DNA of 64,000 nucleotides from an uncultured delta proteobacterium (GTDB taxonomy: Bacteria; Desulfobacterota; Binatia; Binatales; Binataceae): assembly GCA_963711565.1 (NCBI GenBank), contig CAVQEQ010000003.1, positions 928,001-992,000 on the forward strand, read 5' to 3'. This document shows positions 48,047 to 64,000 of the stretch, piece after piece (position 1 is the first letter of the stretch; every line of letters starts with the position of its first letter). The translations under genes and the position numbers were made by a program. The notes below the pieces were generated by a model that saw only the letters and a program-made list of their open reading frames with translations, ran no database searches and was not told where the DNA came from.

Positions 48047-48420
48047 GTCACAGGATCCACGCCAAAAGCTTTGAGGTACTCTATGTTGTTCGACCGTGCC
48101 GTGCCCAACTCCAGTCGTCCCTTGCAGAGAATATCGAGCGTGGCCACTCGCTCCGCGATACGAATTGGGTGATTGTACCGCAACATCACGACCGATATGT
48201 GACGGATCGTGATCTTCGACGTTAGCGCGGCAACAGCGCCGTAAAGAGTTTCCGGCGCCGAGACCGAGTAGGCAGACGGAACGAAATGTTGTTCTGAAGT
48301 ACCCCAGAAATCGAAACCCATCTCTTCTGCAAATACCGCCTCCTTTATAATCTCATGATAACGTGCGCTATATGAGAGGCCCTTAGGCACCTCGCCTTCG
48401 GTAAGGAGTCCAAATTTCAT
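48047..48420 (-). pseudogene. Luciferase-like monooxygenase (LLM), truncated by IS21 copy 2
   Basis: MKFGLLTE...SEQHF...HPIRIAERVATLDILCKGRLELGTAR; stops about 125 aa in, at the IS end. Confidence 0.88.
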
Positions 48421-48490
48421 TTCGTTCTCTCCAGCCTACGCTAGCTTTGCAATGGACACGTCCGTCCCCAAATAGGGTTAAAGTCGAGAA

Positions 48491-49996
48491 TTAGAGTTTC
48501 ACATATACCGATTTGATCTGCGTATACAGATCCAGCGAATGTTTGCCCAACTCGCGGCCTATACCAGACTGCTTATAGCCTCCGAACGATGAAATCGGAT
48601 CGATGTTGTTATAGCAATTGACCCAAACGGTGCCGGCCTTGATCGCGCGCGCTACTCGAAAAGCTCGGCTCACATCGCGCGTCCATACGGCGGCGGCTAG
48701 ACCATAGGTCGTGTCATTGCCCTGGAACACCGCGTCGTTTTCGTCCTTGAATGGAATCACTGCCGCAACCGGACCGAAAATCTCTTCGCGCGCGATCTTC
48801 ATGCTATTTTTGACGTTTGTAAAAATCGTTGGATCGACGAAAAATCCCTTCCCAGTCCGTACTTCACCACCAATTGCGGTCTTGGCACCTTCGTTCTTTC
48901 CTGCACCAATGTAGCTGTTGACGCGGTTGAACTGCTCTTTCGAAACCAGCGGCCCTACCATCGTGTTAGCATCGAGCGGGTCGCCGGCTTTGACCTTCGA
49001 CGCGTAGCGGGTCAGGTGATCGACGAAGCGATCGTGGAAGTCGCTCTGCACAAATACCCGCGTGCCCGCGCAGCAGACTTGGCCGGAGAGCATGCAAAAG
49101 CCCATCAGCGAAGTAGGTACCGCGTCTTCAAGGTCAGCATCGGGGAAAACAATATTGGGTGACTTGCCACCGAGCTCGAGCGAGACCCGCTTCAGATTTC
49201 CAGCAGATGCCTGGAGGATCAATTTGCCCACTTCAGTTGAACCGGTAAATGCGACTTTGTCGATGTCTGGATGCGAGGCAATCGCGGCGCCAGCGGTTTC
49301 GCCGTATCCAGTAACAATGTTGACGACGCCCTCCGGAAGATCAGCTTCCATCATCAGCTCTCCGATTCTGAGCGCCGTTAGCGGTGTCTGCTCGGCAGGC
49401 TTTAATATCGATACGTTTCCGCACGCGAGCGCCGGCGCGATCTTCCAAGCAAGCATCGCGATTGGACCGTTCCAAGGGATTATCTGGCCACAAACGCCAA
49501 CTGGCTCGCGCAGCGTGTAATTGAACATCGAGGGATCGGACGGATTGGTCTCACCGTAGATCTTGGTCGCCCATCCTGCATAATACCTGAAAGTGTCAGC
49601 GGCCATCAGCGTAAACCCGCGGGCCAATGAGATCGCCATGCCGTTATTGAGCGTCTCGAGGATCGCCAGCTCTTCAACGTGTTTCTCGATCAAGTCCGCG
49701 ATAGTCAGCAGGTAGCGAGCACGCTGATGCGGATTGATGGTTGGCCACTTACCATTTTCGTATGCCCTTCGGGCGGACTTGACCGCTTCATCGACATCCG
49801 CTTTGTCACCTTCAGAGACCAAGGCTAGCACTTCTTCGTTTGCGGGATTTATGGTTTCGAAAGTCTTTCCTGATTTCGCCGGTACCCACTCACCTCCTAT
49901 CAAAAGGCCCTTCGGTCTGCGGAGGAAATCCAGAACCGGGATCGAAGTTACGCCTTGTGCCGCTCGTAATATTGATGGAACCGTTGATGCCGCCAC
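48491..49996 (-). CDS. Aldehyde dehydrogenase
   Basis: IIPWNGP, LKPAEQTP, FTGSTEVG, LELGGKSP, GQVCCAG, EEIFGPV. Confidence 0.96.
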   Translation of the reverse strand: MAASTVPSILRAAQGVTSIPVLDFLRRPKGLLIGGEWVPAKSGKTFETINPANEEVLALVSEGDKADVDEAVKSARRAYENGKWPTINPHQRARYLLTIADLIEKHVEELAILETLNNGMAISLARGFTLMAADTFRYYAGWATKIYGETNPSDPSMFNYTLREPVGVCGQIIPWNGPIAMLAWKIAPALACGNVSILKPAEQTPLTALRIGELMMEADLPEGVVNIVTGYGETAGAAIASHPDIDKVAFTGSTEVGKLILQASAGNLKRVSLELGGKSPNIVFPDADLEDAVPTSLMGFCMLSGQVCCAGTRVFVQSDFHDRFVDHLTRYASKVKAGDPLDANTMVGPLVSKEQFNRVNSYIGAGKNEGAKTAIGGEVRTGKGFFVDPTIFTNVKNSMKIAREEIFGPVAAVIPFKDENDAVFQGNDTTYGLAAAVWTRDVSRAFRVARAIKAGTVWVNCYNNIDPISSFGGYKQSGIGRELGKHSLDLYTQIKSVYVKL

Positions 49997-50104
49997 TTCT
50001 ATTCTCCTCTAAGACTGTTACTTTGATCTGATGTGATTTGCGTCCAGACTCCGAAACGGGTCTACCTTAGCCGGCAACGTTGGGCACAGTGGTACTGCGC
50101 ACCT

Positions 50105-50617
50105 TTAGTGAGACTTTCGACTGTCCTCTTTGGGGTTCTGATATATGATGGCGACCGCGTCCAGGTAGTAGCCTGGATGTCCGGGTTGTCCAATTCGCGG
50201 TGTCAGGCCCTCTTCGTAGCTTCGGCTCCGGTCCGAATTCCCGTCGTTGTTCTGAACCGTCGTTGCAGGAAGGTCCATTGTTTCGAGCCGACCATCGACC
50301 TGGGATTGACTTGACAACATCAGCAGTGCGTCAGCGCCAGCACCGCAAGCTTTCTGGCGCACAGCGCTTAGCATTTCCTCTTTGTGATCGAGAGTTCCCC
50401 AAGATTCTACGATCGCGATTTTTTGATAGTCAGTTTCCAAGGGTTCTGAACGTAGAATGGGCATCAAACAATCCGGCGGCTTTGGGGCGCGAGCGATGGG
50501 ATCAATTTGTACGATAGATGTCTGAGGAGGCTGGCTGGAAGAGCAACTCCAAACGGCCGAACAGCCCAATGCGCAGCAGAGCATGAAGCCTTCGAATAGA
50601 GTTCGCATTTTCACCAA
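50105..50617 (-). CDS. Hypothetical lipoprotein
   Basis: Lipobox-like AVWSC; KACGAGADAL segment. Confidence 0.65.
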   Translation of the reverse strand: MVKMRTLFEGFMLCCALGCSAVWSCSSSQPPQTSIVQIDPIARAPKPPDCLMPILRSEPLETDYQKIAIVESWGTLDHKEEMLSAVRQKACGAGADALLMLSSQSQVDGRLETMDLPATTVQNNDGNSDRSRSYEEGLTPRIGQPGHPGYYLDAVAIIYQNPKEDSRKSH

Positions 50618-50674
50618 CAGTTCGGTTGAATTGCCGTTTAAAAGGAACGAGAGAGGTAAATGACTGACTATTCT

Positions 50675-51166
50675 CTACTCGCCATTTGGACGACGCACCT
50701 CCCACACTCCATTTGAAGCAAGCGTGCCTGCTACGTAACAAGTGAAGTTCCCCTTCATGCTGTTTCCTTGAGCCGATCCTTCGAACGAGCATGCCAGGTT
50801 GTTTGGCATCGCCTGCACTTGTAGCTTTAGCTTACCTTCTTTAATGGTTCCGCCGGTGATTTTCCCCAGGGGATTGTTGCAATCGACATTCGCTTTCTTG
50901 CCTGCGTAGCATTTGTATGAACCCGAGATCTCTTCACCGCTCTGCTTCAAGTCAAATCGGATACTGTGAACTCTAAATTCGTCCGACCCGGTGCCGCCGG
51001 TCGTCGTTCGAGTACCCTTCCACACTCCTGACACCTTCACATCACCGGTATCAGGCGCCTGTGCTCCGGCTATCGGACACCAGTAAAGCATTGTCATCGA
51101 CACTAACAATGTAAGGCAGATTACTATTCGGTTCAGGTACATCGGAATCGTGTCCTTCCTAGTCAT
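50675..51166 (-). CDS. Hypothetical secreted beta-rich protein
   Basis: Signal peptide, VSGVWKG, four Cys in the mature part. Confidence 0.65.
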   Translation of the reverse strand: MTRKDTIPMYLNRIVICLTLLVSMTMLYWCPIAGAQAPDTGDVKVSGVWKGTRTTTGGTGSDEFRVHSIRFDLKQSGEEISGSYKCYAGKKANVDCNNPLGKITGGTIKEGKLKLQVQAMPNNLACSFEGSAQGNSMKGNFTCYVAGTLASNGVWEVRRPNGE

Positions 51167-51890
51167 GAGTTGTGTAGCTTTTCCGGCCTTTTAAGTTGAC
51201 ATCGAAGAGCTCAAGGGTTCGTTTCCACGCGTCCTCTGCGTCGTTGGCGCTGTAAACGTCAATTCGAGTATCATTGAAAAAGCCGTGCGAGCAGCCCGCG
51301 TACACCTTGACTTGGCCCGGCTTGCCGAACTTTTTGAGCGCCGCCCCGAGACGGTCAACGTCCTGGCGCTGAATCCATCCGTCGTTCTCGCCGTAGACGT
51401 AGAAGATAGGACATCCAAGACTTGCGAGCTGATCGTCAGACGGAATCTCGCCGTAGAACGGCGCCGCCGCCTTGATCTCCTTGCTTATACAAGGCAGTAA
51501 GACCGCATAGCTCCCACCCATGCAGAAGCCAATTACGCCGATATGCGCGGCGTCAGCCTTAGGCTGCTTTTTGATCCATCCAATGGTGCTAGCCAAATCG
51601 TCCACGCCATCGACTACCAGCAGTCCACCCATCAGGTCGGCAGCTAGACCGGGATCTTTGGTCACCTGATGCCCCTGTCGTGAGTAGAGATCGGGCGCGA
51701 CCGCAAAATAGCCTTCGGCCGCCAGGCGTCGCGCTACATCTCGAATGTGGTCGTCGAGCCCCCACCATTCATGCACGACGATTAGAGCTGGCCACGGCCC
51801 AGCCGCCGCAGGTTCTGCCACAAAGGCTCTGAGCTCGCAGCTCTTACCCGAAAAACGAACTTCTTTGCCGGTCACCTGCTTATTTGCCAT
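51159..51890 (-). CDS. Dienelactone hydrolase family protein
   Basis: VHEWWGL, APDLY, GFCMGG nucleophile, END, HGFFND. Confidence 0.93.
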   Translation of the reverse strand: MANKQVTGKEVRFSGKSCELRAFVAEPAAAGPWPALIVVHEWWGLDDHIRDVARRLAAEGYFAVAPDLYSRQGHQVTKDPGLAADLMGGLLVVDGVDDLASTIGWIKKQPKADAAHIGVIGFCMGGSYAVLLPCISKEIKAAAPFYGEIPSDDQLASLGCPIFYVYGENDGWIQRQDVDRLGAALKKFGKPGQVKVYAGCSHGFFNDTRIDVYSANDAEDAWKRTLELFDVNLKGRKSYTTHD

Positions 51891-51896
51891 CGATCG

Positions 51897-52154
51897 TCAC
51901 TCTCTAAGAATGTACTTCTCGGCACCGTGCTCAATCAGATAGTCGTAGATGATTACTTGTATTTCATCATCACCAATCCGCCGCTCGAACAGTTCGTAGT
52001 TTAATCGATGTACAATATCAGCGGCTTTCGAGAACGACATCTCGCTAGTCAGCTTGATACGGTCGGTCATATCCTTGTTGGGCGGCAAGTAGTAAAGGCA
52101 GTAACCCACTACAGACAGATCATAAAACACCATGCCATGCTTTTGATTGACCAT
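51897..52154 (-). CDS. Small hypothetical protein (85 aa)
   Basis: Co-oriented ORF filling the gap between the Rid and DLH genes; no family recognised. Confidence 0.55.
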   Translation of the reverse strand: MVNQKHGMVFYDLSVVGYCLYYLPPNKDMTDRIKLTSEMSFSKAADIVHRLNYELFERRIGDDEIQVIIYDYLIEHGAEKYILRE

Positions 52155-52263
52155 CCTGATCGCTGCATCTCTCTTGCTAAAGACTTCGATTTCCTGAAAA
52201 CTGCATTCTACCGGTCGATCTCGCCGGCCAACCCGGTGCGACCGGATGACCTGACCGAGTATC

Positions 52264-52659
52264 TCAACCGCGCAAACGGGCGACGAGTCTGATTTCGACC
52301 AGCGCCCCAGGCACGGCCAGTTCGGAGACCCCGACTCCCGTCCAGGCGGGGTAGGGCTCTGGCATGTATCGATCCTTGACCTTCGAAAACAATGGCAGTT
52401 GAGCTTGCAGGCCGACGTGAAAGGTCGTCATTTCGACTACATCGGAATACGAACAACCCGCCTCCGCCAGTACAGCCTTTAGCGTTTCGAAGGCTTGCGT
52501 GTATTGCTTCTCCGGGTCTTTCACGGCCGTCCCGTCCGGCTCAAGCCCGATCATTCCAGCCAAAAAGAGCCGGTCCTTATCCTTAACGGCCGGCGAGAAG
52601 TGAAAGTTGTTGTAGAAGCCCTCCATTCCTTTCGGAAGGACAACATCGCTTTGTTTCAT
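52264..52659 (-). CDS. Rid (YjgF/YER057c/UK114) family protein, YjgH-like, lacking the catalytic Arg
   Basis: FSPAVK...LFLAGMIG...YPAWTGVGVSEL...LVEI. Confidence 0.9.
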   Translation of the reverse strand: MKQSDVVLPKGMEGFYNNFHFSPAVKDKDRLFLAGMIGLEPDGTAVKDPEKQYTQAFETLKAVLAEAGCSYSDVVEMTTFHVGLQAQLPLFSKVKDRYMPEPYPAWTGVGVSELAVPGALVEIRLVARLRG

Positions 52660-52721
52660 ACAGACTCTCCCTGACGTTAAGGGCGTAAATGAGATCCTCG
52701 TGTTCAAGCCAAACTGCCGGA

Positions 52722-53015
52722 CTACTCCTGGAACACGTTGATTTCCAGTTGCGCGTACGCCTGTTGGCGCAGCGGTATTACCTTTTGGTAAGCCGGATCG
52801 TTGTGCCAGGCGCGCGCGGACTCGGCGTCTGGAAAGCGAAGTATGGCACCCACTGTCCACTTATGTTGTCCTACGAAGTTATCTGTCCCCGTTCCCCGAG
52901 CTACTACCTGGCCTTCGTGCTTTTGGATGACCGGCATCGCCACAGCTTGATACTGCTTCAGAATCTCGGAACGCTCCGGATGCAGGATTCCTTGGACGAC
53001 TACGAGAACACTCAT
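52722..53015 (-). CDS. DUF1330 family protein
   Basis: HEGQVVARG...ILRFPDAESARAWHNDPAYQ...PLR. Confidence 0.85.
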   Translation of the reverse strand: MSVLVVVQGILHPERSEILKQYQAVAMPVIQKHEGQVVARGTGTDNFVGQHKWTVGAILRFPDAESARAWHNDPAYQKVIPLRQQAYAQLEINVFQE

Positions 53016-53081: not shown

Positions 53082-55568
53082 TCATCCTTCGGTTCCGCTA
53101 TGGACAGTTATTCGTTCGGGAATGCTTGCTTCATTTGTGCTGCCCGTAACTACTTGTTCACCAAACCAAGCCCATAGAATTGGCGAAAGGACCGCGCTCA
53201 TCAGAAAGCACCAAAAAAGAACCAAACCCATTCCAAAGCCCACATATCCGATATACAAAGGCACTGGAATAAGCGCCCAACAACCCAAGATTAGAGCTCC
53301 ATTAGACACGAGGAGCGCTCTGCGGATCTTGACGTATCCTTGGATTAAAGCCTCGCGAAAGTTCCTTACCTTCGCATACTCCTCGCGGACGCGAAACAGC
53401 AGATACACCTCTGAGTCGATTCCCACTCCACTGGCTATTGCCAGGGCTGCAATAGCGTTGGAATTGATTTCGATTCCTAGCAGATACATAAACGCGACTG
53501 ATATTATGGTGCCCATGATAAGCGGCACAGTAAGTATCAACGAGAGTCTGATCGATCCTATAAATGGTATCGCCAAAATCGCAGTTCCGAGAAACCCGAG
53601 CAAAGCGCCAACCAACAACCAATAGCCGATGTTGTCATTAAAGGCTTGCGCGATGCCGACAGATCCTCCAGCAACACCTACAGTCACCGGCAGTCCTTCA
53701 AAGAGCGTGCCGGCCTTTTCCTGGGTTGCCGACAACAGTCGCTTGACCGCGCCGGGCTCGGTGGTCGCCACGTAAGCAATTATCACGGTCTGCCTCAAAT
53801 CGTTGGTGAACAGCCACAAGTAGGCGCCGGGCGCGTGATCTGCGAGATCAAGCACCTCAAGACCGAGCTCGCTTTTCGTGTCCGGAATCTTGAAATACTG
53901 TTGATCGTCTCCATGCAAAAACGAGTTGCTGAGTTTCAACGGATAGGCCACATCGGCGACGCTGCCCACTCCCGGTTGTTCGCGTATAAAACGCGCTAGC
54001 TCGTCGACGGCTCGAAGTACAGCCGGCTGCTCGAGGACTTTCCCCGCGGCCGACTTACCCTCGATATACACGGTCATAGGATAGACGCCACCGAACCGCG
54101 TCACGATTCCCCGCTCCATCTGAAAGATCGGGCTTCGCAGCCACGACCGCGTCAGATAGTTGTGGATCGCGTAAGTATTGTTCTGACCGATCGGGGCATG
54201 AAGGTCCACTTCGAACGCTGTTGCGGTGATAACCACGGAGGCCAGAACGAGGGCTACACTTACGCGCCGCGAATCCAGAACTCTATGAATGAGCGTCGCC
54301 AGCGATGAGTCCAGGCGCGGCACGCCGGCGCTCTGCTGTTGTACACGGCCGCCGACCTCTTGAAGTTCGCTCAAGGCGACGTAGCTGAGGGCAGGAATCA
54401 TCAGAAGGAATTCATCGACGGTGAGCGAGAGCAAGCCAAGACTGGTCACTATTCCCAACATTCGAACGTTATCGAATGGAATCGCTGCCATTACAAGAAA
54501 AGGAACGACGTCACAAAGCAAAGACACAAGCATCGGGCGGAGGCGCGATACAAAGGTACTTACGATTGCATCGTCAACCTTCTTCAGGCGCGGATACTCT
54601 TCGTAAAAGAAACGCGTAAGAAACTGAACCGAGTGACACGCCCCCGCCGCGACTATGATGAAGGGTGCAAGGAGCGCGGATGCGGAATAGATGGTCGCGC
54701 CGAAACACAGGCGATACAATCCAAATCCCATCAGCACGCCGAGGAAGGACACTCGGAGAGGCAAGACCACGGCACTATAGGTACGAAAGCCGTACCATAG
54801 CACCACCCCTATAATTACTACGAAAAAGCCGAACGCACCGAAAATGTATAAAAGGCCGGTGCTATTCACCCAGCCAATAATGATAGGAGTCCCCGCCGTG
54901 CGGAGTTCGAGTCCAGGGCTTTGATGTTTTTTAAGTATCTCATTTACGGCGTGATAGATCTCAACCGGATCTGTTGTATCAACTTTCACCAATGCGTGCG
55001 CCGACACCTCGGTGCGAAAATCGGCCAAGATCAATGCGGCCTTGCCATCCTTGGAAACCAGCACTCCGTTCAACATCGGATTGTCGGTCACCGCCGCTTT
55101 AATTGGAAGCACATCTTTATCATTCTGAAGGGTATCGGGCATGATAGGGGAGACGGACATCGTTTCGTCCGGAGTGCCCTTATTCAGGAACGCATATGAC
55201 TCACTGCTAAGGGTAGAAACCGAGCGAATCGCATACGGTATGACGCCGGGTACCAGAAAGAGATCGTCCGTGATCGCCTTAATAGTGTTCAGATGAGACT
55301 TAGTGTAAATGGTTCCATCTGTGGCGAGTACTTCGATACTTACGGAGTTGCCTCCGCCGAAGGAGGACATAATCTGCTCGTTGAGCCGAACGTATGGATC
55401 ATTGCGCGGAGGCCACGCATTGGGATCATCGCGTAACCGAAGACCAAACAGCGCCCAAATACATAGCGAAGCGATCACAACCTGGAGTATAACACCTATC
55501 CTGCGGCGTCGGATGAAAAAGCGCGCCATCCGCTCCAGTTTGCGATCCAATCCCGTGTACTGTTCCAT
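53082..55568 (-). CDS. RND/MMPL family inner-membrane transporter (DUF1302/DUF1329-associated type)
   Basis: Two repeats of TM + periplasmic domain + TM cluster; FGGGNSV, AGACHSVQ, GVGIDSEVYL. Confidence 0.88.
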   Translation of the reverse strand: MEQYTGLDRKLERMARFFIRRRRIGVILQVVIASLCIWALFGLRLRDDPNAWPPRNDPYVRLNEQIMSSFGGGNSVSIEVLATDGTIYTKSHLNTIKAITDDLFLVPGVIPYAIRSVSTLSSESYAFLNKGTPDETMSVSPIMPDTLQNDKDVLPIKAAVTDNPMLNGVLVSKDGKAALILADFRTEVSAHALVKVDTTDPVEIYHAVNEILKKHQSPGLELRTAGTPIIIGWVNSTGLLYIFGAFGFFVVIIGVVLWYGFRTYSAVVLPLRVSFLGVLMGFGLYRLCFGATIYSASALLAPFIIVAAGACHSVQFLTRFFYEEYPRLKKVDDAIVSTFVSRLRPMLVSLLCDVVPFLVMAAIPFDNVRMLGIVTSLGLLSLTVDEFLLMIPALSYVALSELQEVGGRVQQQSAGVPRLDSSLATLIHRVLDSRRVSVALVLASVVITATAFEVDLHAPIGQNNTYAIHNYLTRSWLRSPIFQMERGIVTRFGGVYPMTVYIEGKSAAGKVLEQPAVLRAVDELARFIREQPGVGSVADVAYPLKLSNSFLHGDDQQYFKIPDTKSELGLEVLDLADHAPGAYLWLFTNDLRQTVIIAYVATTEPGAVKRLLSATQEKAGTLFEGLPVTVGVAGGSVGIAQAFNDNIGYWLLVGALLGFLGTAILAIPFIGSIRLSLILTVPLIMGTIISVAFMYLLGIEINSNAIAALAIASGVGIDSEVYLLFRVREEYAKVRNFREALIQGYVKIRRALLVSNGALILGCWALIPVPLYIGYVGFGMGLVLFWCFLMSAVLSPILWAWFGEQVVTGSTNEASIPERITVHSGTEG

Positions 55569-56776: not shown

Positions 56777-58060
56777 CTAGTGAGACAGCCAGTCTACGAG
56801 CGTCATCGGTTGCGCTGCCAGAGTTGTTTCCGAATAGATACTTGGCGAGGTGTCAGCATTAAACCCGCCCTGCTGTATCCAACCATCCATGACAAACCCA
56901 CCTTCGAGATCAACCACACAAGCAACGCCCCACATCTGCCACCATCGGGGAGCGTTATTCGGACCGTTCGGGCCACCGACGTGAACGTTCTCGTTGGCGC
57001 CAGTCATTGGAAGATGGGTGAAGTAGCGAATCATCTTTCCATTCGCGTCGTACTCCTCGGTATAGTAGGTGCACATGCCGATAAGACCCACGTATTCGAT
57101 TCGCTTGGCGTACCACCAGCTGATGCCGGGCTTCGGAGTGACTTCCATCATGGCGACAACGTCTCCCGCGCCACTAACTCTTTTTACGTTGGCTGGAATG
57201 CCTTCGTTATTGAAACCGCGCAGCTTGTCCGAAGGATCCCACAGCTTGAAGCCCGTAATCTTGTAGTCGAGCTGCGGAAGAGCTCCAGAATAACTGACGT
57301 CTTCGTAACGGTAGATCGATCCAGGAAAGTACTGTTTAGCGACCGCACCAGCCAATCGGCGCGTGCGCCGGACTGTCGGCAGGTAAAGCGTGTCCTCGGG
57401 AACCAACGCCGGATCGTTGTATACCGTGGTAACACCACCTTCTCCGCGCAGCTCTTCGGGAGCGGTGAGCTCCCACATGTACTTCCGTTGTACGTCGTGA
57501 TCGGTGGAGGCTAGATATTGTTTACCATTGCCATTTACAAATGAGGTGTAGTGCTCGAGAGTTAGACTCGAAGTCCGAATTGAGCCATCCGGAAGGTGAA
57601 CGATAATTGGAGAGATATCCCATCCATTGTTATAATATGGTCCATAATAGCTGAAGGTGAGACCACGATCAGGAATCTCTGAGACCGGAATCTTGTCTCT
57701 CTCCGCGACCGGTACCTCAAAAGGAAACGGCAGTCCTGGCGTGGCCCACTGCGCAATGAATGCGGGACCTAGCTTCTGCTGGCGATCCTCCATCCAGGGC
57801 TGAGCCTTCCACACCATCGATTGATCTCCCCACTTCACCACCCAGGTTCCCGGAGACTCTCCGGGAGTCACGCTATAGGGCTTGCCGGCTATTACCTTTG
57901 GTATGGGCGGTACGTCCGGGACTTGAGCCGAGCTGTCAGCAAGCGCACCGCCGACCGTCCATTTCATCGAGAGAAACAGCGCGACGGTCGCGGCCACGAT
58001 TGCGAGAAGGAACGCGCAGGCCGTCGTCCGGTTGGCCTGACCTTTATCATAGTGCCTCAT
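56777..58060 (-). CDS. DUF1329-like periplasmic protein (LolA-like fold predicted)
   Basis: Signal peptide; APEELRGEG, DTLYLPTVRRTRRL, YDANGKMIR motifs. Confidence 0.75.
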   Translation of the reverse strand: MRHYDKGQANRTTACAFLLAIVAATVALFLSMKWTVGGALADSSAQVPDVPPIPKVIAGKPYSVTPGESPGTWVVKWGDQSMVWKAQPWMEDRQQKLGPAFIAQWATPGLPFPFEVPVAERDKIPVSEIPDRGLTFSYYGPYYNNGWDISPIIVHLPDGSIRTSSLTLEHYTSFVNGNGKQYLASTDHDVQRKYMWELTAPEELRGEGGVTTVYNDPALVPEDTLYLPTVRRTRRLAGAVAKQYFPGSIYRYEDVSYSGALPQLDYKITGFKLWDPSDKLRGFNNEGIPANVKRVSGAGDVVAMMEVTPKPGISWWYAKRIEYVGLIGMCTYYTEEYDANGKMIRYFTHLPMTGANENVHVGGPNGPNNAPRWWQMWGVACVVDLEGGFVMDGWIQQGGFNADTSPSIYSETTLAAQPMTLVDWLSH

Positions 58061-58127: not shown

Positions 58128-59705
58128 CTACAACAAAGTCTGATGTAGCTCGAAGAATACGTTGGTTGTGTTAGTGAATTCTCCATAGGGCGTTTGCTTC
58201 CCGCCCGCATAGATGTTGAAGCCCAAACCTAAGGTGGTCCTATCGCTAATTCGATAACCGACATGCGGCTGGAGCCACCAATCATGGAACTGCCACTCGT
58301 ACACCGCAGACAACGAAGTATCCAGCACGTCTCCCGTCATCGAAGTCTTGTCCATATAGAGCGTCGACAGACTCTCATACATGCCGCGCAGACCTGAATG
58401 ACTGCCTTGGTAACCTAGACCCTGGAACATGTCCTCGTTACCGCCACACGCGCATTCGTTATTACGATGTAGGACCCAGTCTTGCCAATACTGAAAACTG
58501 AAGAACACCGGCCGCTCCAGGTAGTCGCCGAGGATCTCCCGATCAACACCACCCAAAATTCCCCAGTGCGTCACGTCGACTGGATTGCCCAGGTTGCCTT
58601 CATAGTACACATCGCCAACAGTTACCGCCGACTCGGCTCTAAGAACGGTTCCATCGATCCACGGATTTCCGGTGTTGAACTCATAATCCGCGGAACCGCC
58701 CGCGACCTGCATGCGATGAGGACGCAGACTGACCCCCGTCGCCGTCGCATAGGTCCCGGTGTTCGGGTAATAGATGTCGGTAGTGGTCCAGGTATAAAGA
58801 TAGTTCAGAGTATAGTGTATGCTGCCGCGCTGTTCGGACCATCGAGCGCCGTACACCCAATTGTTGAGTCTGCTCGAAGGGTTATTCACGTCGGTTGGAA
58901 TTTTAAAGCCGAGAGAACCGTTTAGTTCGTTGTTGATGGCCGCTACACTTCCGTAGGTGAAATCCCCATAGGACCCGTTAATCGGATAACCGCCTTTCAT
59001 TTGAAGACCAGTGTAATAAGTGGGATAGTACTGGGGAATGAAGATTGCCTGCAGCTCGCCGCCTGGATAAGGCTGCCAGACAATATTGGCGGCCCATTCT
59101 GGAATCTTGATTTGCTGCTCGTTGAAGATCTGCGGATTGATCAGATTGAAGTTGTTTATTATGTCCAGCATGTACACGCCGTCTGATTTGCCCCAGGCGA
59201 TAATCTGACGGCCGAGACGAATGAAAAAGTGCTTAGGATGAAGGTCGACGTAATACTCTCTGAACAACGGCTGGTAATTGTCCTGCATGCTACCGCTGAC
59301 GTTGGTCGCCAGCGACGAAAGATATGAATGGTAAGTCCCTTGACCGAAGCCGGTGGCATCGTAAGTCGAGTCATAGGTAGGACGCATTTCCAGATGCCAA
59401 TGTATCGGAAACCCAACCATTTCCGATAACTTCTGCGGGTTGCCGTCAACCAGAGCCAGGAGCTGATTATTCTGAAACAAAAGATTGTCCGGATGCCTCG
59501 TAAAAAAAGTCTCAGTATTCGCGTCGAATACAGTACGTCTTTGGTCCGGCAGATTCACATAGGCTGAAACAAACAACGTGAGGCACGTGGTTATTCCGTA
59601 TGTGTCAAAGGTCTCACAGGCCTCCGCTACTCTGCTGGATAGCAAAACAAGACCGACTACGAAAAATATTCCAAGGTGCAAGAACGGTCTGCATCTGATT
59701 CGCAC
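58128..59705 (-). CDS. DUF1302-like outer-membrane beta-barrel protein
   Basis: Signal peptide; FREYYVD...RLGRQIIAWGKSDG...DIIN; alternating aromatic C-terminal strand; lies upstream of DUF1329. Confidence 0.75.
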   Translation of the reverse strand: MRIRCRPFLHLGIFFVVGLVLLSSRVAEACETFDTYGITTCLTLFVSAYVNLPDQRRTVFDANTETFFTRHPDNLLFQNNQLLALVDGNPQKLSEMVGFPIHWHLEMRPTYDSTYDATGFGQGTYHSYLSSLATNVSGSMQDNYQPLFREYYVDLHPKHFFIRLGRQIIAWGKSDGVYMLDIINNFNLINPQIFNEQQIKIPEWAANIVWQPYPGGELQAIFIPQYYPTYYTGLQMKGGYPINGSYGDFTYGSVAAINNELNGSLGFKIPTDVNNPSSRLNNWVYGARWSEQRGSIHYTLNYLYTWTTTDIYYPNTGTYATATGVSLRPHRMQVAGGSADYEFNTGNPWIDGTVLRAESAVTVGDVYYEGNLGNPVDVTHWGILGGVDREILGDYLERPVFFSFQYWQDWVLHRNNECACGGNEDMFQGLGYQGSHSGLRGMYESLSTLYMDKTSMTGDVLDTSLSAVYEWQFHDWWLQPHVGYRISDRTTLGLGFNIYAGGKQTPYGEFTNTTNVFFELHQTLL

Positions 59706-59758
59706 GTTTGTCTCCCCGTTCGGCTCTACATCTATTCTATAAATGTGATGCGCGAGCT

Positions 59759-60178
59759 CTACAGAGCCACTATGGCTTGAAGCTCGACCAGCAACTCTGG
59801 AAGAGCGAGCTGCTTTACGCGCACCACTGTCCCGCATGGTCGTCCTGTCGTAAAGAACTCTTTCTGAACTTCGACCACCACGTTGAAATCCTCCATCAGC
59901 GGACGGTCGCTCCCCTTGTCGGCTAGAAAGCTCATCAACTGCACCACACCGTCGATGCTTCCGCCGGCGTGTTCTATCACCTGTTTCATGTTAGAGAAGG
60001 CCCCGCGCACTTGCTCCCGCAGGCCTCCTTCGACTATTTTGCCGGTCGCAGGATTCCATCCAACCTGGCCGGCTAGATAGAGCATGTTCCCCACCTTAAC
60101 GCCTTCCGCGTAACGAATGCTGTCGCAGAACGCTTTGCTGTCTGCTGGTACGATATATTCAATTTTTTGACTGGCCAT
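59759..60178 (-). CDS. Rid family protein lacking the catalytic Arg
   Basis: YAEGVKVGNMLYLAGQVG...RPCGTVVRVKQL...LVELQAI. Confidence 0.9.
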   Translation of the reverse strand: MASQKIEYIVPADSKAFCDSIRYAEGVKVGNMLYLAGQVGWNPATGKIVEGGLREQVRGAFSNMKQVIEHAGGSIDGVVQLMSFLADKGSDRPLMEDFNVVVEVQKEFFTTGRPCGTVVRVKQLALPELLVELQAIVAL

Positions 60179-60217
60179 TTTCCTGGTTCCCTTGAGACAG
60201 GTTTGCTTCGACCCGTG

Positions 60218-60712
60218 TCACTTGATTGTCAGATCGACAAAGAACGACCACTTCCCAGCCTTGTCCGCCGCCGCCAGGAGCTGACGCGATTCGTGGTAAT
60301 GCACTATCGCCCATCCCTGCTTACCCTTTCGAACCCCAATGGAACACCTTATTTTGCCGATTATTTTCTCAGGCATGACCGTGGTGGTAAGTTCGGTCAT
60401 CACCTCCGTCCAGATTATCGCGGCCGTAGGCGAGAGGAAGGAAACCGACTTCGCCATCTCGGTCCAGTCGGTTACCGATGCCAGTAGGTTGTGAGCATTG
60501 TGCCAGTATGCCTCGATGTCTTTGTAAGTGAGGAGCCCGCTGGGAATCTCTTCGGCCGTATATAGCATCCCGTCGAACTCTTTGTCGTACAAGCTGAGCA
60601 TCAATGTCGTATCAGGAAAACTTAACCAAGCTTTGCGCCAGCGGCTGTACAGATCGTTGACCGCCGCAAGCTCCTTCTGCTTATCGAATCCCGCATCACT
60701 TGACTCTGACAT
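60218..60712 (-). CDS. SnoaL/NTF2-like protein
   Basis: YTAEE...IEAYW...WAIVHYHES. Confidence 0.8.
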   Translation of the reverse strand: MSESSDAGFDKQKELAAVNDLYSRWRKAWLSFPDTTLMLSLYDKEFDGMLYTAEEIPSGLLTYKDIEAYWHNAHNLLASVTDWTEMAKSVSFLSPTAAIIWTEVMTELTTTVMPEKIIGKIRCSIGVRKGKQGWAIVHYHESRQLLAAADKAGKWSFFVDLTIK

Positions 60713-60783
60713 TGTCCTACTCCTTGTTTCACTCGATCGAACCGCGTCGAAAAGGTTCTAGAGAGTTAACCACCCGAACCGGG

Positions 60784-61884
60784 CTAGGGAACCGGCGTAT
60801 ATTCGCTGTTCTGTATAACGGTGCTCGGCGTCTTGAACCTGGGGATAACGTATTTCCCGATCAACTCGATCGCCCTGCTTATTTCCTCGTGGTTTCCGTC
60901 GAGCCGGAAGACTACTTCGTCCGCGCCAAGCGCCTTGTAGGTTTCACAGCGCTTGATAAAAACCTCCGGCTCGCCGGCGATGCACGACGTCTCGTTCACC
61001 ATCCAATCCAGGTCTCGGGCCTTGCTCCGGATTTTCTCCATCTGCAGGGTATATCCGTAGCTATCCGACCTTTGGCCCAATTGCGGGTAGAGATCCTCAA
61101 TCACGGGAGTAACGAATCGCGGGAACGCCTGTTTCGCAACCTTCATCGCGTCCTTCGTCGATTCGGCGCAGACAGAGTTCAGTACTACTGCGGAGAAGCA
61201 GTTGTTGATGAACCCGCCAACCGGCTTCGCGGTCTTGATGCCCTCCCGATATACGTCGTAGCACTTCTTTACGTAGTCGGGTCCGAAATATAGATCCCAG
61301 GAGAGAACCCCGATTCCTTTTGATGCGCCGACCGCGTGGGACTCGGGCGACTGGGCTACCATGCATACAGGTGGATGCGGCACCTGGACCCCTTTGGGTG
61401 ACAGCGACCGCGGCGGAATCTTGAAATACCTGCCCTCGTGAGAAAACGGATCGTTCAGGAACGCCTTCATCACGATCTCGAGGCCTTCTTCCCAGCGTGC
61501 GCGAGTTTCATCGAGCGGACAGTTGAATCCGTCGAGCGCAAGCAGCGTATTCGCGCGCCCCGTTCCGAGTTCCGCGCGGCCATTGGAAACAATGTCCAAC
61601 GTCGCAAGCCGTTCCGCGACCCTGATCGGATTATTGAAAGGAAACGGCAGTAGGACGACCATGTGCCTGAGTTTGATTTTATTCGTCTTCGCGGCGATGA
61701 ATGGATAGAAAGTTTCCGGAGCGGATACGCAAGCTACCGGACTGATGAAATGCTGTTCAGAGGTTCCAAAAAAATCCCAACCCATTTCTTCTGCCAGGAT
61801 TACCTCATCCACTACTTCCATGTAGCGACGATAGTGCGTTGTGCCTGGAGCAGTTTCTGCCTCGGAAAGAAGACCAAATTTCAT
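60784..61884 (-). CDS. Luciferase-like monooxygenase (LLM)
   Basis: SEQHF, NPIRVAERLATLDIVSNGRAELGTGR, PKGVQVPHPP. Confidence 0.92.
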   Translation of the reverse strand: MKFGLLSEAETAPGTTHYRRYMEVVDEVILAEEMGWDFFGTSEQHFISPVACVSAPETFYPFIAAKTNKIKLRHMVVLLPFPFNNPIRVAERLATLDIVSNGRAELGTGRANTLLALDGFNCPLDETRARWEEGLEIVMKAFLNDPFSHEGRYFKIPPRSLSPKGVQVPHPPVCMVAQSPESHAVGASKGIGVLSWDLYFGPDYVKKCYDVYREGIKTAKPVGGFINNCFSAVVLNSVCAESTKDAMKVAKQAFPRFVTPVIEDLYPQLGQRSDSYGYTLQMEKIRSKARDLDWMVNETSCIAGEPEVFIKRCETYKALGADEVVFRLDGNHEEISRAIELIGKYVIPRFKTPSTVIQNSEYTPVP

Positions 61885-61976
61885 GTGTTTTTCATCTCCC
61901 TCGAAATTAGACCCTGTTTGAATCCTCGTAATATCTTAGGACCGATTTCTTTGCGGCTTCTGAACTTCAACTCCGC

Positions 61977-62435
61977 TTACCCGGGGTCCGGCTCATCGAG
62001 GCGTAACTCCTCAGGTGTTGGCATGCTCTGCAACGATTCGTGGTAGTGAATTATCTTCCATGCGCCGTCGACTTTCCGGACAACGAAGGTTTGCCTGACA
62101 TTTCCGCTGTATGCGTCCGGAAGGTTGTGCACCACCATCGTGAAATCGTTAGTGCTGTAAGCGTAGCCAAAATCTCCGAAGACACTGACCCAAAGGCCGC
62201 TTCGATCCCATTTGGTGACTCGTACTATGAGTTTGGTCAGCACTTCGCGGTAGTAGTGCTTGATGTGCAACCAGCTCGTTAGCGGCTTGGGAAATTCCTC
62301 GGCTTGATACACCAAGCCGTCGTAGGTTGAGTCCCAACAGTCACGCAAAGTATTGAAGTCCTTCACCTTGAAGGCACTTATCCAACGATCCAGTAGCGAG
62401 GTAATTTCCTTCTTAGCTTGATTGATGTCGCTCAT
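61977..62435 (-). CDS. SnoaL/NTF2-like protein
   Basis: YQAEE...IKHYY...RQTFVVRKVDGAWKIIHYHES. Confidence 0.82.
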   Translation of the reverse strand: MSDINQAKKEITSLLDRWISAFKVKDFNTLRDCWDSTYDGLVYQAEEFPKPLTSWLHIKHYYREVLTKLIVRVTKWDRSGLWVSVFGDFGYAYSTNDFTMVVHNLPDAYSGNVRQTFVVRKVDGAWKIIHYHESLQSMPTPEELRLDEPDPG

Positions 62436-62782
62436 TGAATTGCCTCTACCCCGCTGAGCAGGCTTTCGGTGTATTCCTCCGCGGTGATGGTTTTACCGAC
62501 GTAGTTCACTTGGTCGAAATATACGTTCCAACCGAGCCGCTCGAGTCGCTCCGACAACTCGATCACCAGATCCATGCTGGGCATCTGCCAATAGGCGAAG
62601 ACGTCCCATCCGCCCTCGGAGAGAGCTCGACAGCGATGGATTCCCAGCAGCTTCGCGCCCTTATCGAACATGGTTTGGAGCACGGCCTGCGCTCTCAGAT
62701 GAAATTCGTGCTTATGAGCTTGAGTCAGCTCATGCCATCCGGGTCGTGGCCTCCAGATCTCGACCAAGCTGAATGTCGCCAT
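62432..62782 (-). CDS. DUF6616/darcynin-like dimeric alpha-beta barrel protein
   Basis: LVEIWRPRPGWHEL...FAYWQMP...GWNVYFDQVN; AGAGGAAAGG RBS. Confidence 0.55.
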   Translation of the reverse strand: MATFSLVEIWRPRPGWHELTQAHKHEFHLRAQAVLQTMFDKGAKLLGIHRCRALSEGGWDVFAYWQMPSMDLVIELSERLERLGWNVYFDQVNYVGKTITAEEYTESLLSGVEAIQ

Positions 62783-62838
62783 GCCTTTCCTCTTTGGGCT
62801 TTCCGCGAAGCGCCAAGTTGGTGAGTCGACATTGCCAG

Positions 62839-62854
62839 AGCAATCTGCGTGCCC
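62839..62854 (-). promoter_or_regulatory. Sigma-54 (-24/-12) promoter of the island operon
   Basis: Minus strand reads GGGCACGCAGATTGCT, i.e. GG-N10-GC matching TGGCAC-N5-TTGC; about 55 nt upstream of the first gene and next to a sigma-54 activator. Confidence 0.8.
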
Positions 62855-62989
62855 GGCGTGAGGCGGGAGTATCGTCCTTGGAGGCAAACCGGTTTCCTTG
62901 ACATAGAATCCAGAAGATTGCTATCGAGCAGGGAGGCGCACCTCAGAACCAGATCAATTTTGAATCAATTGTTACGGAGCAGTTGTAAT

Positions 62990-64000
62990 GTGTTGACATT
63001 TGATCAGCGCGTAGTATCTCGACTCTGGGAAAGATTCATGTCGGGGATCGAGAACGCAGACCTCCAACCGTTGCGACCCGAGGTGCGAGAGTCATGGTTG
63101 CGAAGTAGGGCGTACGGCTTAAGTCCGGAAAAGTGCAAAGCTCCCAGAGTTCTAGAAGATGATGTTCTCAGCCGACTCCAGTCAGAGAGCATCTTAAGTC
63201 AGGTTTGCTCTCCGATTCTCGATTTCACGTTTGATGCGCTCAGAGATCTTCCCAATGTTCTTCTGCTAGTGGCAGACGCCCAAGGTCGAATTCTTCAGTT
63301 TGTAGCTGGTCCACGTGCGCAGACCGCCGCCGAAGAGATAAACGCGATTTCGGGAGCCTGCTGGACTGAGGAACTGATGGGCACGGACTCACTCGCGTGC
63401 TGTCTTCGCCTCCAGCGTCCAATATCAATAGTGGGGTTTGAGCATTACATTCAGGTGGGACAAAACTGGGCCGGGCACGCAGCTCCCATAAGAGACTTGT
63501 TCTCCAACCGCCTTGCTGGGATCGTCTGTATTTATGGATTCCAGGAAGAAGCTCACGCCAAGGCTAAGGCACTGATCGCAAATTGCGCTCATCTGATTGA
63601 GAGAAGCCTTCACTCGAAATCGGCGAACGCCCGGCTCTTACTGTACGAGAACTACGCCTCGGCTCGCGATCGATACAAGTCTGAAGCGTGTCTTGCTATC
63701 ACCGCTGACTCTCTGCTGCTGAGAGCGTCGCCAGAGGCCTCCAAGCTCTTAGGAATCCCGCTCGGCTCACCGCGATCCTTATCCAGTCTGGTGGAGATGA
63801 ATCTGGTCGCTCCGGAAACCACGCTCTCCCGCTCGACCGATAGGATTGCCTTGCGCGGACGCGCAGGATTTACCGGTCTGGCTCAGTTGTTTCCGGTCGT
63901 CAATGAAGGAACCGTCGCCGGATATATTGCCATCATGGATAGCTTGCAACGGCCGGCTGGTGCTAACTCTCCATGGAGGCCGACCTACGCTTTTGCTGAC
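62990..64000 (+). CDS. AcoR-type GAF-domain sigma-54-dependent transcriptional activator (3' end beyond window)
   Basis: Open frame from GTG 62990 to the edge, absent from the ORF track: LWERF...LRPEVRESWLRS...ADAQGRIL...GACWTEELMGTD...GFEHY...AAPIRD...YAFAD; the AAA+ domain is expected next. Confidence 0.85.
   Translation, partial: MLTFDQRVVSRLWERFMSGIENADLQPLRPEVRESWLRSRAYGLSPEKCKAPRVLEDDVLSRLQSESILSQVCSPILDFTFDALRDLPNVLLLVADAQGRILQFVAGPRAQTAAEEINAISGACWTEELMGTDSLACCLRLQRPISIVGFEHYIQVGQNWAGHAAPIRDLFSNRLAGIVCIYGFQEEAHAKAKALIANCAHLIERSLHSKSANARLLLYENYASARDRYKSEACLAITADSLLLRASPEASKLLGIPLGSPRSLSSLVEMNLVAPETTLSRSTDRIALRGRAGFTGLAQLFPVVNEGTVAGYIAIMDSLQRPAGANSPWRPTYAFAD

What the first reader, a model, noticed from the sequence alone, without database searches (positions are those of the whole stretch)
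48047..64000. Candidate undescribed sigma-54-controlled uptake-and-oxidation system (17 co-oriented genes plus divergent GAF activator)
Seen: one minus-strand run follows a clean -24/-12 promoter (62839-62854) next to a divergent AcoR-like activator. Gene order: DUF6616-like, SnoaL, LLM, SnoaL, Rid, DUF1302, DUF1329, LLM, RND, DUF1330, Rid, 85-aa orphan, dienelactone hydrolase, secreted protein, lipoprotein, ALDH, LLM (IS-truncated). Established: LLMs are flavin-dependent oxygenases; AcoR-type GAF activators respond to small aldehydes/alcohols; DUF1302/DUF1329/RND clusters accompany catabolism of hydrophobic compounds. Inference: a complete module that imports a hydrophobic or heterocyclic substrate, oxygenates it repeatedly, processes reactive intermediates (SnoaL, Rid, DLH) and oxidises the aldehyde that may also be the inducer. 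I do not recognise this set as a named pathway. It is not rut, ssu or lux, and no flavin reductase is visible. Biosynthesis plus export is an alternative reading.
Basis: partly seen in the sequence, partly recalled or inferred. Interest (0 to 1): 0.8.

Follow-up and report, generated by a model that had tools for sequence, protein, structure and literature searches.

The report
Binatus pyridine-type ring-opening oxygenase operon
A 17-gene operon in an uncultured soil bacterium (Ca. Binatus-like) holds three oxygenases from the clade of the known pyridine- and pyrazine-ring-splitting enzymes, plus a membrane-transport trio and helper proteins, so it likely lets the cell break down small nitrogen-containing aromatic rings, although the exact substrate is untested and one oxygenase is broken by an insertion element.

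Summary
In detail: 17 co-oriented genes (gaps ≤109 bp), a conserved σ54 site and a divergent GAF–AAA+–HTH activator. The host is Ca. Binatus-like.

The reading can be sharpened. All three luciferase-like oxygenases (LLMs) fall in one clade (99.6/100) with a Rhodococcus TpdA-type tetramethylpyrazine oxygenase and the Arthrobacter 68b p2MP LLM (recalled as pyridine monooxygenase PyrA). The intact LLM3 orthologue is 49% identical to the latter. SnoaL2's only match among 72,556 plasmids is the NTF2 gene of that p2MP region. An activator–(Rid)–LLM–SnoaL cassette recurs in other Binatia families.

Best reading (0.6): a σ54-induced N-heteroarene ring-opening module, bolted onto an AmeABD-like DUF1302/DUF1329/RND trio lacking AmeC.

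Corrections:
- The 17 genes are a mosaic. The full order occurs in one other genome, a 10–11-gene core in two more.
- The trio serves many unrelated pathways, and import is unproven.
- Both Rids lack the catalytic arginine.
- There is no amidase or flavin reductase in cis.
- LLM3 and what followed it were lost at an IS21.

Verdict: new variant of a known kind, directly testable.

The parts
62990..64000 (+). AcoR/DhaR-type GAF-AAA+-HTH sigma54 activator; likely start GTG 62990 (inferred from an RBS and the conserved N-terminal helix); continues beyond the window to about 64939
62969..63006 (.). Block of high nucleotide conservation overlapping the activator start; candidate enhancer (inferred; may partly reflect the RBS and coding sequence)
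   Evidence: five-sequence alignment
62839..62854 (-). sigma54 -24/-12 promoter GGGCACGCAGATTGCT
62432..62782 (-). DUF6616 (darcynin-like by language-model features); in 9 of 165 family genomes, each time near such an activator
61977..62435 (-). SnoaL1, NTF2-fold companion; 30% identical to the p2MP NTF2 protein
60784..61884 (-). LLM1, PyrA/TpdA-clade luciferase-like monooxygenase (40% to the TpdA-type enzyme, 36% to the p2MP LLM)
60218..60712 (-). SnoaL2, NTF2-fold companion (model pLDDT 91); its only plasmid match is the p2MP NTF2 gene; in 7 of 165 family genomes, all in these clusters
59759..60178 (-). Rid1, lacks the catalytic Arg (P-C-G-T)
58128..59705 (-). DUF1302-like outer-membrane beta-barrel (AmeA-like); start uncertain
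56777..58060 (-). DUF1329/LolA-like periplasmic protein (AmeB-like), divergent subfamily
55641..56693 (-). LLM2, deep branch of the same clade, outside the TpdA-PyrA bracket
53082..55568 (-). HAE3/MMPL RND permease (AmeD-like)
52722..53015 (-). DUF1330; a DUF1330 gene also lies in the p2MP region
52264..52659 (-). Rid2, Trp at the Arg position (Rid4/Rid7-like)
   Evidence: PMC4433059
51897..52154 (-). 85-aa protein of no family; homologues in G015 (88%) and G028 (48%), so not an orphan
51159..51890 (-). Dienelactone-hydrolase-family protein (GFCMGG); found in the cluster only in G000 and G015
50675..51166 (-). Small protein with a signal-like N-terminus and four cysteines (secretion inferred); homologues recur beside the trio and activators
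50105..50617 (-). Lipoprotein-like protein of no family
48491..49996 (-). Aldehyde dehydrogenase; 96% to the G028 protein, 36% to a p2MP ALDH, 68-69% to three other ALDHs of the same genome
48047..48420 (-). LLM3 5' fragment (124 of 381 codons); the intact G028 orthologue is 49% identical to the p2MP LLM
45506..48046 (-). IS21-family element (istA/istB-like ORFs; family name recalled) with no target-site duplication; truncates LLM3 and a methyltransferase gene

Best explanation
This is a co-oriented 17-gene run behind a conserved sigma54 site, whose three luciferase-like oxygenases fall in the clade of the pyridine and tetramethylpyrazine ring-cleaving enzymes, so it likely serves as an inducible module that opens the ring of small N-heteroaromatics (pyridine, alkylpyridines, alkylpyrazines or similar). 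Predicted steps: (1) The divergent GAF activator senses the substrate or a product aldehyde and fires the sigma54 promoter (parts shown, ligand inferred). (2) The DUF1302 barrel, DUF1329 and the HAE3 RND move the compound or its products across the envelope (parts shown, direction unknown). (3) LLM1, LLM2 and, in relatives, intact LLM3 use FMNH2 from a reductase encoded elsewhere plus O2 to cleave a ring bond next to nitrogen, giving an N-acyl enamide, with an aldehyde if that carbon is unsubstituted (inferred by homology). (4) The NTF2/SnoaL proteins assist that step, as TpdB is annotated to do for TpdA (inferred from linkage). (5) The ALDH oxidises the aldehyde, and an amidase acting in trans, or the DLH-family hydrolase, frees the nitrogen (inferred). 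Three paralogues would widen the substrate range. In this strain LLM3 and the genes after it are lost.
For: Homology: full-length LLM3 (G028) has the p2MP LLM as its best plasmid hit, 49% over 383 aa. LLM1 is 40% identical to an R. opacus LLM that is followed by an annotated tpdB, an amidase, LuxR, a flavin reductase and an SDR. Tree of 54 sequences: LLM3 + p2MP LLM 99.3/100; LLM1 with that lineage 98.8/99; the node that adds the TpdA-type enzymes 91.6/98; the whole clade with LLM2 99.6/100. In a genome with 57 PF00296 matches, the three cluster LLMs are the top three tblastn hits of the p2MP LLM, and LLM1 and LLM2 are the top two of TpdA. Independent link: SnoaL2 matches 1 record of 72,556 plasmids, the NTF2 gene about 4 kb from the p2MP LLM; that region also has Rid, DUF1330 and ALDH genes. 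Linkage: SnoaL2 occurs in 7 of 165 family genomes, all in these clusters. 16 of 30 metagenome SnoaL loci carry a clade LLM (at least 40% identity) nearby, 3 carry a more distant LLM, and 11 carry none (all 3.6 kb or shorter). A Rid-SnoaL fusion lies beside an LLM3-type gene (P0169, L104). G193, G295 and G332 carry activator / (Rid)-LLM-SnoaL. Amide-cleaving genes lie beside relatives: DMFase-like in G130, FmdA in G003, an amidase in G332. FMN use: flavin reductases lie in relatives' clusters, some with ribB or riboflavin kinase.
Against: Identity to the anchors is only 34-49%, too low to transfer a substrate. LLM2 lies outside the TpdA-PyrA bracket. The LLM1-TpdA sister grouping of the first tree did not survive denser sampling. 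The anchors rest on annotation and recall: the two primary papers were not held, and the R. opacus protein is TpdA by context, not the tested enzyme. TpdB shows no BLAST similarity to SnoaL1 or SnoaL2. No amidase or flavin reductase lies in the operon, and DMFase and FmdA queries found nothing in G000 at E<=1e-8. Both Rids lack the catalytic Arg. The ALDH is closer to other ALDHs of the genome (68-69%) than to the p2MP one (36%). Many clade members have other neighbours, such as CoA ligase and enoyl-CoA hydratase, so the clade is not proven to be substrate-uniform. The genome has a CofE-like gene, so F420 use is not excluded by test.
Confidence: 0.6

Rival explanations
1. A catabolic module for another heteroatom compound (a non-aromatic amine, cyclic imine, or S- or O-heterocycle). 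The LLMs cleave a C-heteroatom bond to an aldehyde, which the ALDH oxidises and the activator senses.
For: LLM families such as SsuD, NtaA and SfnG release aldehydes this way (established knowledge, recalled). Identity to the ring-cleaving anchors is moderate. G013 and G046 pair the same kind of activator, DUF6616 and the trio with Rieske oxygenases, an alcohol dehydrogenase and an SMR pump instead of LLMs.
Against: NCBIfam scores for SsuD, SfnG and NtaA models are far below cut-off and lower than the luciferase-type models. The p2MP-type NTF2 link and the tree point specifically to the pyr/tpd clade.
Confidence: 0.2
2. A detoxification island. The oxygenases inactivate a toxic N-heterocycle or lipophilic base and the AmeABD-like trio exports substrate or products, with no growth on the compound.
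For: AmeABCD deletion lowered monoterpene tolerance and raised Nile Red accumulation (PMC6394551, passages). No amidase lies in cis, so the pathway may stop after ring opening.
Against: Relatives place DMFase-like, FmdA or amidase genes next to the module. The trio elsewhere sits with nitrogen-releasing genes such as urease-like ORFs and amidases, which fits nutrient use better.
Confidence: 0.1
3. Biosynthesis plus export of a small specialised metabolite, with the LLM, SnoaL and Rid proteins as tailoring enzymes.
For: The best solved-structure match of LLM1 and LLM2 is a luciferase-like monooxygenase entry (7bip), and SnoaL folds are common in biosynthetic clusters (established). RND pumps usually export.
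Against: No scaffold-building enzyme lies in the cluster or in the seven related Binataceae clusters examined. The nearest annotated relatives lie on catabolic plasmids with amidases or amidohydrolases and ALDHs.
Confidence: 0.05
4. The run is not one functional unit but a conserved oxygenase-transport core with a tail of unrelated genes accreted in a mobile island.
For: GC is 0.51-0.54 against 0.61 for the genome. The ALDH-LLM3 tail is 82-89% identical in DNA to G028 and G158, while the trio is only 64-73% identical to them. DLH is in the cluster in only 2 genomes.
Against: The tail comes from a sister cluster that has the same kind of activator, DUF6616, SnoaL2 and trio. Gaps are 109 bp or less, and terminator-like sites are at shuffle level (17 vs 15.1).
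Confidence: 0.05

Closest known systems
pyr cluster of Arthrobacter sp. 68b plasmid p2MP (PyrA pyridine monooxygenase, PyrE reductase, PyrB/PyrD dehydrogenases, PyrC amidohydrolase; gene names and chemistry recalled from Casaite et al. 2020, text not held; a citing passage seen in PMC10905003)
   Same: LLM3 orthologue 49% identical and in one clade (99.3/100); homologous NTF2 protein (30%); Rid without the catalytic Arg, DUF1330 and ALDH also in the region.
   Different: Here: three paralogous LLMs, two NTF2 genes, no amidohydrolase or flavin reductase in cis, sigma54/GAF control, and a Gram-negative envelope trio; the pyridine-type copy is broken in this strain.
tpd locus of Rhodococcus (TpdAB tetramethylpyrazine oxygenase, TpdC, TpdR; PMC6099782 passages; chemistry recalled from Kutanovas et al. 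2013, not held)
   Same: LLM1 is 40% identical to the LLM upstream of an annotated tpdB, with the same order of an LLM followed by a small NTF2-fold gene.
   Different: SnoaL1 and SnoaL2 are not detectably similar to TpdB in sequence; no TpdC-like amidase in cis; the regulator is a sigma54 activator, not a LuxR/LAL protein.
AmeABCD of Castellaniella defragrans and other DUF1302-DUF1329-BNR-RND cassettes (PMC6394551; bioRxiv 10.1101/072470; 10.1101/2020.07.04.188060; PMC13499233; passages read)
   Same: Outer-membrane barrel, LolA-like periplasmic protein and HAE3 RND together inside a catabolic island.
   Different: No AmeC (BNR/YCF48) gene. The only PF14870 gene of G000 lies elsewhere, beside another RND. 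DUF1329 and RND are directly adjacent in 23 of the 27 related loci that have both. The subfamily is divergent, with no plasmid match.
rut operon (RutA LLM, RutC Rid)
   Same: LLM plus Rid acting on an N-heterocycle (established, recalled).
   Different: The Rids score far below the RutC cut-off and lack the Arg; no RutA model among the best 25 NCBIfam matches shown for LLM1 and LLM2; no RutB/D/F/G set.

Membership tests
PyrA/TpdA-type azaarene ring-cleaving LLM | Falls in the clade holding both anchors | tested here: met
   whole clade 99.6/100; LLM3 with the p2MP LLM 99.3/100; LLM1 inside, and LLM2 outside, the node joining both anchors
PyrA/TpdA-type azaarene ring-cleaving LLM | Linked small NTF2-fold gene | tested here: met
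   the homologue is the p2MP NTF2 protein, not TpdB
PyrA/TpdA-type azaarene ring-cleaving LLM | Ring cleavage of an azaarene with FMNH2 and O2 | not testable with these tools
   Needs an enzyme assay
pyr / tpd pathway as a whole | Flavin reductase in the cluster | tested here: not met
   None in cis; three PF01613 genes elsewhere, one 34.5% identical to the p2MP reductase
pyr / tpd pathway as a whole | Amidase or amidohydrolase in the cluster | tested here: not met
   None in cis; 6 distant TpdC-like and 1 distant amidohydrolase-like genes elsewhere; present beside relatives G130, G003, G332
pyr / tpd pathway as a whole | Aldehyde dehydrogenase for the ring-opened product | tested here: inconclusive
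   ALDH present, 36% to a p2MP ALDH but 68-69% to other ALDHs of the genome
AmeABCD-type cassette | DUF1302 outer-membrane barrel | tested here: met
   Pfam 23.0 bits vs cut-off 23.2; a model of mean pLDDT 65 matches porins, AlgE and OccAB
AmeABCD-type cassette | DUF1329 and HAE3 RND | tested here: met
   DUF1329 above its Pfam cut-off; MMPL above cut-off; best NCBIfam model is HAE3 (TIGR00921), below its cut-off
AmeABCD-type cassette | BNR/YCF48 (AmeC) gene in the cassette | tested here: not met
AmeABCD-type cassette | Direction of transport | not testable with these tools
   The papers read disagree (export, ester use, envelope component)
Imine-hydrolysing Rid (RidA, Rid1-3) | Arg at the position of Arg105 | tested here: not met
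   Gly in Rid1, Trp in Rid2; the PAR motif is kept in control Rids in the same alignment; criterion from PMC4433059
sigma54-dependent operon with AcoR-type activator | -24/-12 site, GAFTGA AAA+ activator with GAF and HTH, rpoN in the genome | tested here: met
sigma54-dependent operon with AcoR-type activator | Transcription from that site as one unit | not testable with these tools
   No RNA data were available
F420-dependent LLM | Meets an F420 LLM model cut-off | tested here: not met
   All listed F420 models far below cut-off; an invariant Arg110 is recalled as the FMN-phosphate ligand; the cofactor was not assayed

The most novel reading that the evidence does not exclude
Binatia have built a sigma54-controlled hub for opening N-heteroaromatic rings. 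A minimal activator-(Rid)-LLM-SnoaL cassette has been expanded to three specificity-divergent ring-cleaving oxygenases. The overlooked NTF2 companion carries out the second, hydrolytic or rearranging, half of ring cleavage, the Arg-less Rids act as carriers, and a three-part AmeABD system without AmeC imports small N-heterocycles. This would give an abundant uncultured soil lineage a role in recycling pyridine- and pyrazine-type nitrogen, and would assign functions to DUF6616, an NTF2 subfamily, Arg-less Rids and the DUF1302/DUF1329 trio.
Probability: 0.25. Interest if true: 0.72.

Novelty: new variant of a known kind. Interest (0 to 1): 0.52.

Why it matters
I know of only two characterised LLMs that cleave an N-heteroaromatic ring directly (PyrA and TpdAB; recalled), both from Actinobacteria. 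This locus supplies three divergent clade members from an uncultured Gram-negative lineage, which are candidate biocatalysts with possibly new substrates.

It also exposes a conserved NTF2 companion that sits in the p2MP region too and could explain how the ring-opening chemistry is completed. It offers an inducible setting in which to test the disputed direction of DUF1302/DUF1329/RND transport and the unknown role of Arg-less Rids.

A term search of the main text of the Binatota survey PMC8262859 found no 'pyridine', 'pyrazine', 'heterocycl' or 'luciferase'.

Tried and rejected
- Complex prediction of LLM1 with SnoaL2: no verdict; not used for or against binding.
- Sequencing runs: no RNA holder listed.
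- Contigs of four DNA runs laid on the IS21-LLM3 junction: two contigs run about 29-30 bases into the IS end, under the tool's 31-base rule, so they are not counted as bridging.
- 'LLM1 is the TpdA orthologue': suggested by the quick tree (SH-aLRT 94), not kept in the 54-sequence tree.
- 'SnoaL = TpdB': no BLAST similarity. A separate DUF4440 gene with weak TpdB similarity follows LLM3-type genes in L107 and L108.
- Sequence search of solved structures with SnoaL2 found nothing. The profile gave only uncharacterised NTF2 proteins. The fold search gave generic NTF2 proteins (3b8l, BaiE, LinA, AtzH), so no reaction could be assigned.
- Plasmid searches: DUF1329 gave no match; DUF6616 gave one Shinella hit, not followed; Rid1 gave 319 records, uninformative.
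- Sigma70 promoter and terminator scans were at or below shuffle level.
- A sigma54 site above the threshold was not found upstream of the cassette in G295 or G331; the sites in G028, G158, L100 and L113 scored 18.5-19, just under the 19.5 threshold.
- The rest of LLM3 was sought in the genome and not found.
- The first automatic gene-calling pass picked antisense frames and was redone. Both are heuristic, and only 39 of 66 family representatives were scanned against Pfam.
- Earlier scan findings: none returned.
- Literature searches showed no paper describing this cluster among the listed results. The library lacks most subscription journals, and no supplements were read.

Full report
1. What is there. 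The window is C3:928001-992000 of a 4.84-Mb, 61% GC genome. The closest titled record for LLM1 (97%) is a Ca. Binatus MAG, so the host is taken to be Ca. Binatus or a close relative. The divergent activator is complete beyond the window: GAF, sigma54 AAA+ with GAFTGA, and Fis HTH. It is followed by two CoA-transferase III genes. rpoN is present.

The -24/-12 site is not beyond chance in the window alone (43 of 100 shuffles). It is the single exact NGGCACG-N4-TTGCW of the genome and keeps its boxes while the spacer changes in relatives. An IS21 at 45506-48046 with no target duplication cuts LLM3 and, on its other side, a methyltransferase gene. The missing DNA was not found in the assembly, which suggests an IS-adjacent deletion (inference). 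In G015 LLM3 is whole (381 aa) and is followed by Rieske, acyl-CoA-dehydrogenase-like and PhyH genes.

2. Is it one conserved unit? Partly. The DUF1329 subfamily occurs in 22 of 165 family genomes. I fetched 29 of the 30 non-own matches. 27 of 29 have the RND and 23 of 29 the DUF1302-like gene, but only 6 of 29 have a clade LLM within the 20 kb fetched. The rest sit beside urease-like ORFs, amidases, Rieske oxygenases, Mo-hydroxylases, an amidohydrolase with an ABC transporter, or other LLMs. The trio is therefore a plug-in module.

The full 17-gene order was found only in G015 (91% DNA identity over 16 kb). G003 has the first 11 genes and G069 has 10 of them. G028, G158 and G130 have a second layout, activator-(LLM2-type)-DUF6616-DUF1302-SnoaL2-DUF1329-RND, ending in ALDH-LLM3 (G028, G158) or a DMFase-like gene (G130). 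The window's ALDH-LLM3 tail is 82-89% identical in DNA to G028/G158 while its trio is 64-73% identical to theirs, so the window's cluster is a mosaic of the two layouts (inference). L005-L007 may duplicate handle genomes and were not counted separately.

3. What the oxygenases are. With 57 PF00296 matches in this genome, 'LLM' alone says little. The protein search returned only generic names; annotated plasmids gave the lead. The intact LLM3 orthologue's best plasmid hit is the LLM of Arthrobacter sp. 68b p2MP, 49% over its full length. That LLM occurs twice on the plasmid, among an amidohydrolase, a flavin reductase, two ALDHs, Rid, NTF2, VOC and DUF1330 genes. No other LLM is annotated in positions 25000-112851; positions 1-25000 were not read, but tblastn found only these two places at E<=1e-30. 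I recall this as the pyr cluster with PyrA. The paper was not held, and I saw only a citing passage in PMC10905003 stating that a flavin-dependent monooxygenase is key to pyridine ring cleavage.

LLM1 is 40% identical to an R. opacus LLM followed by an annotated tpdB, an amidase, LuxR, a flavin reductase and an SDR. This matches the tpdABC/tpdR description in passages of PMC6099782. In a 54-sequence ML tree (30 of the 82 rows kept, 24 added), LLM3 groups with the p2MP LLM (99.3/100), LLM1 joins that lineage (98.8/99), and the TpdA-type pair falls in the enclosing 91.6/98 node. LLM2 is the outer branch of a 99.6/100 clade that excludes the genome's other sampled LLMs. The earlier LLM1-TpdA sister grouping was not kept.

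4. An independent link. SnoaL2 matches exactly one of 72,556 plasmid records, the NTF2 gene of that same p2MP region (30%, E 2e-13); SnoaL1 matches it as well. SnoaL2 occurs in 7 of 165 family genomes, all in these clusters. Of 30 metagenome loci, 16 have a clade LLM nearby, 3 a distant LLM and 11 none, the last all 3.6 kb or shorter. About 9 of the 16 resemble the Binatus clusters and are not independent. In L105 and L107-L109 the SnoaL gene directly precedes an LLM3-type gene, and L104 has a Rid-SnoaL fusion after one.

At class level 29 of 401 genomes match. I fetched 10 of the 25 outside the family. G193, G295 and G332 have activator / (Rid)-LLM-SnoaL, with a TGGCACG-N4-TTGCC site in G193 and G332 but none found in G295. 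G331 has LLM-LLM-SnoaL. Six genomes of one genus pair a distant SnoaL with LLMs of only about 31% identity. SnoaL2 models as an NTF2 fold (pLDDT 91) with invariant Trp, Glu, Tyr and Arg residues, but its fold neighbours do not fix a reaction. It is not a sequence homologue of TpdB.

5. The other parts. Both Rids lack the Arg that passages of PMC4433059 call essential for imine hydrolysis; Rid2 has the Trp of Rid4/Rid7, and the p2MP Rid lacks the Arg too. The DUF1302-like protein is just under the Pfam cut-off, but a moderate model (pLDDT 65) matches porins, AlgE and OccAB, as passages of PMC13499233 report for the family. The trio matches AmeA, AmeB and AmeD without AmeC.

Passages read disagree on direction: export of monoterpenes (PMC6394551), need for growth on fatty esters (10.1101/2020.07.04.188060), or export of an envelope component (10.1101/072470). 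'Uptake' is therefore open. Flavin reductases lie in trans. No amidase lies in cis; the DLH-family protein is a candidate but is in the cluster in only two genomes. A CofE-like gene exists, yet F420 models score far below cut-off and relatives cluster with flavin reductases, so FMN is preferred (inference).

6. Mechanism. Shown: gene content, promoter conservation, clade membership, LLM-SnoaL linkage, loss of the Rid Arg, IS truncation. Inferred: induction through the GAF activator, FMNH2/O2-dependent ring opening of an N-heteroarene to an N-acyl enamide, help from SnoaL, oxidation of an aldehyde by the ALDH, nitrogen release by an amidase in trans, and transport by the trio. Confidence is 0.6 for N-heteroarene ring opening. 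Rivals: another heteroatom substrate 0.2, detoxification and export 0.1, biosynthesis 0.05, an incoherent accretion 0.05.

7. Novelty. It works like the pyr and tpd systems but is not a member of either as a pathway: no reductase or amidase in cis, a different regulator, three paralogues and an added envelope trio. The paper searches listed no description of this cluster. A term search of PMC8262859 found none of six terms, and the scan's own index returned nothing. Subscription journals and supplements were not seen. The two unread primary papers may already discuss the NTF2 and Rid genes. Verdict: new variant of a known kind, interest 0.52.

Noticed in passing
G000 genome: 13 DUF1329 genes, several in tandem, but only one DUF1302-like match and one YCF48 gene; most DUF1329 copies seem to lack the usual partners.
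   Followed up: no
L048, L049, L050, L053 (G045, G033, G071, G020): The same AmeC-less trio lies directly beside urease-like structural and accessory ORFs (recognised by eye from sequence, not scanned) and an amidase; an odd neighbour for a supposedly hydrophobic-substrate system.
   Followed up: partly
L040, L041 (G013, G046): Activator-ADH-HbpS-like-DUF6616-secreted protein-Rieske operon divergent from Rieske-trio-SMR pump-Mo-hydroxylase genes, with sigma54 sites on both sides; Rieske enzymes replace the LLMs.
   Followed up: partly
P0122 and P0251: A protein 95% identical to SnoaL2 is labelled Ca. Acidiferrales by its source, and an LLM1-cluster member has the same longest-contig length; possible cross-phylum transfer or mislabelled bin.
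   Followed up: no
window 39152-43930: Large low-GC gene with G8 and CEMIP beta-helix domains, cysteine-rich, directly after another IS21 copy (36487-39029).
   Followed up: no
window 44641-45505: Class I methyltransferase gene cut at its 3' end by the IS21; single copy in the genome.
   Followed up: partly
L002 11715-14023 (about 6 kb before the window): A tandem pair of related LLMs (34-42% to LLM1/LLM2) behind a TetR-like gene; they fall in the sister group of the clade.
   Followed up: partly
L001 4989-7447 (just beyond the window): Two CoA-transferase III genes follow the activator; kept in G015 and partly in G003 and G130; a partial IS21 and an IS3-like ORF follow.
   Followed up: partly
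L091-L092 (G132): A clade LLM close to the A. crystallopoietes and pYKAM101 enzymes lies in a long nitrogen-catabolic region with a Rid, an amidohydrolase, a glutamine synthetase-like gene and a soluble di-iron monooxygenase.
   Followed up: partly
L072 (G046): An LLM3-lineage gene lies next to conjugation-like genes (a T2SS/T4SS ATPase hit), hinting at carriage on an integrative element.
   Followed up: no
L080 27510-27803 (p2MP): A 97-aa 'hypothetical protein' that reads like a C-terminal fragment of the same LLM, suggesting rearrangement in that plasmid region.
   Followed up: no
window 8241-9260: Another LLM, from a distant branch of the tree, unrelated to the cluster.
   Followed up: no
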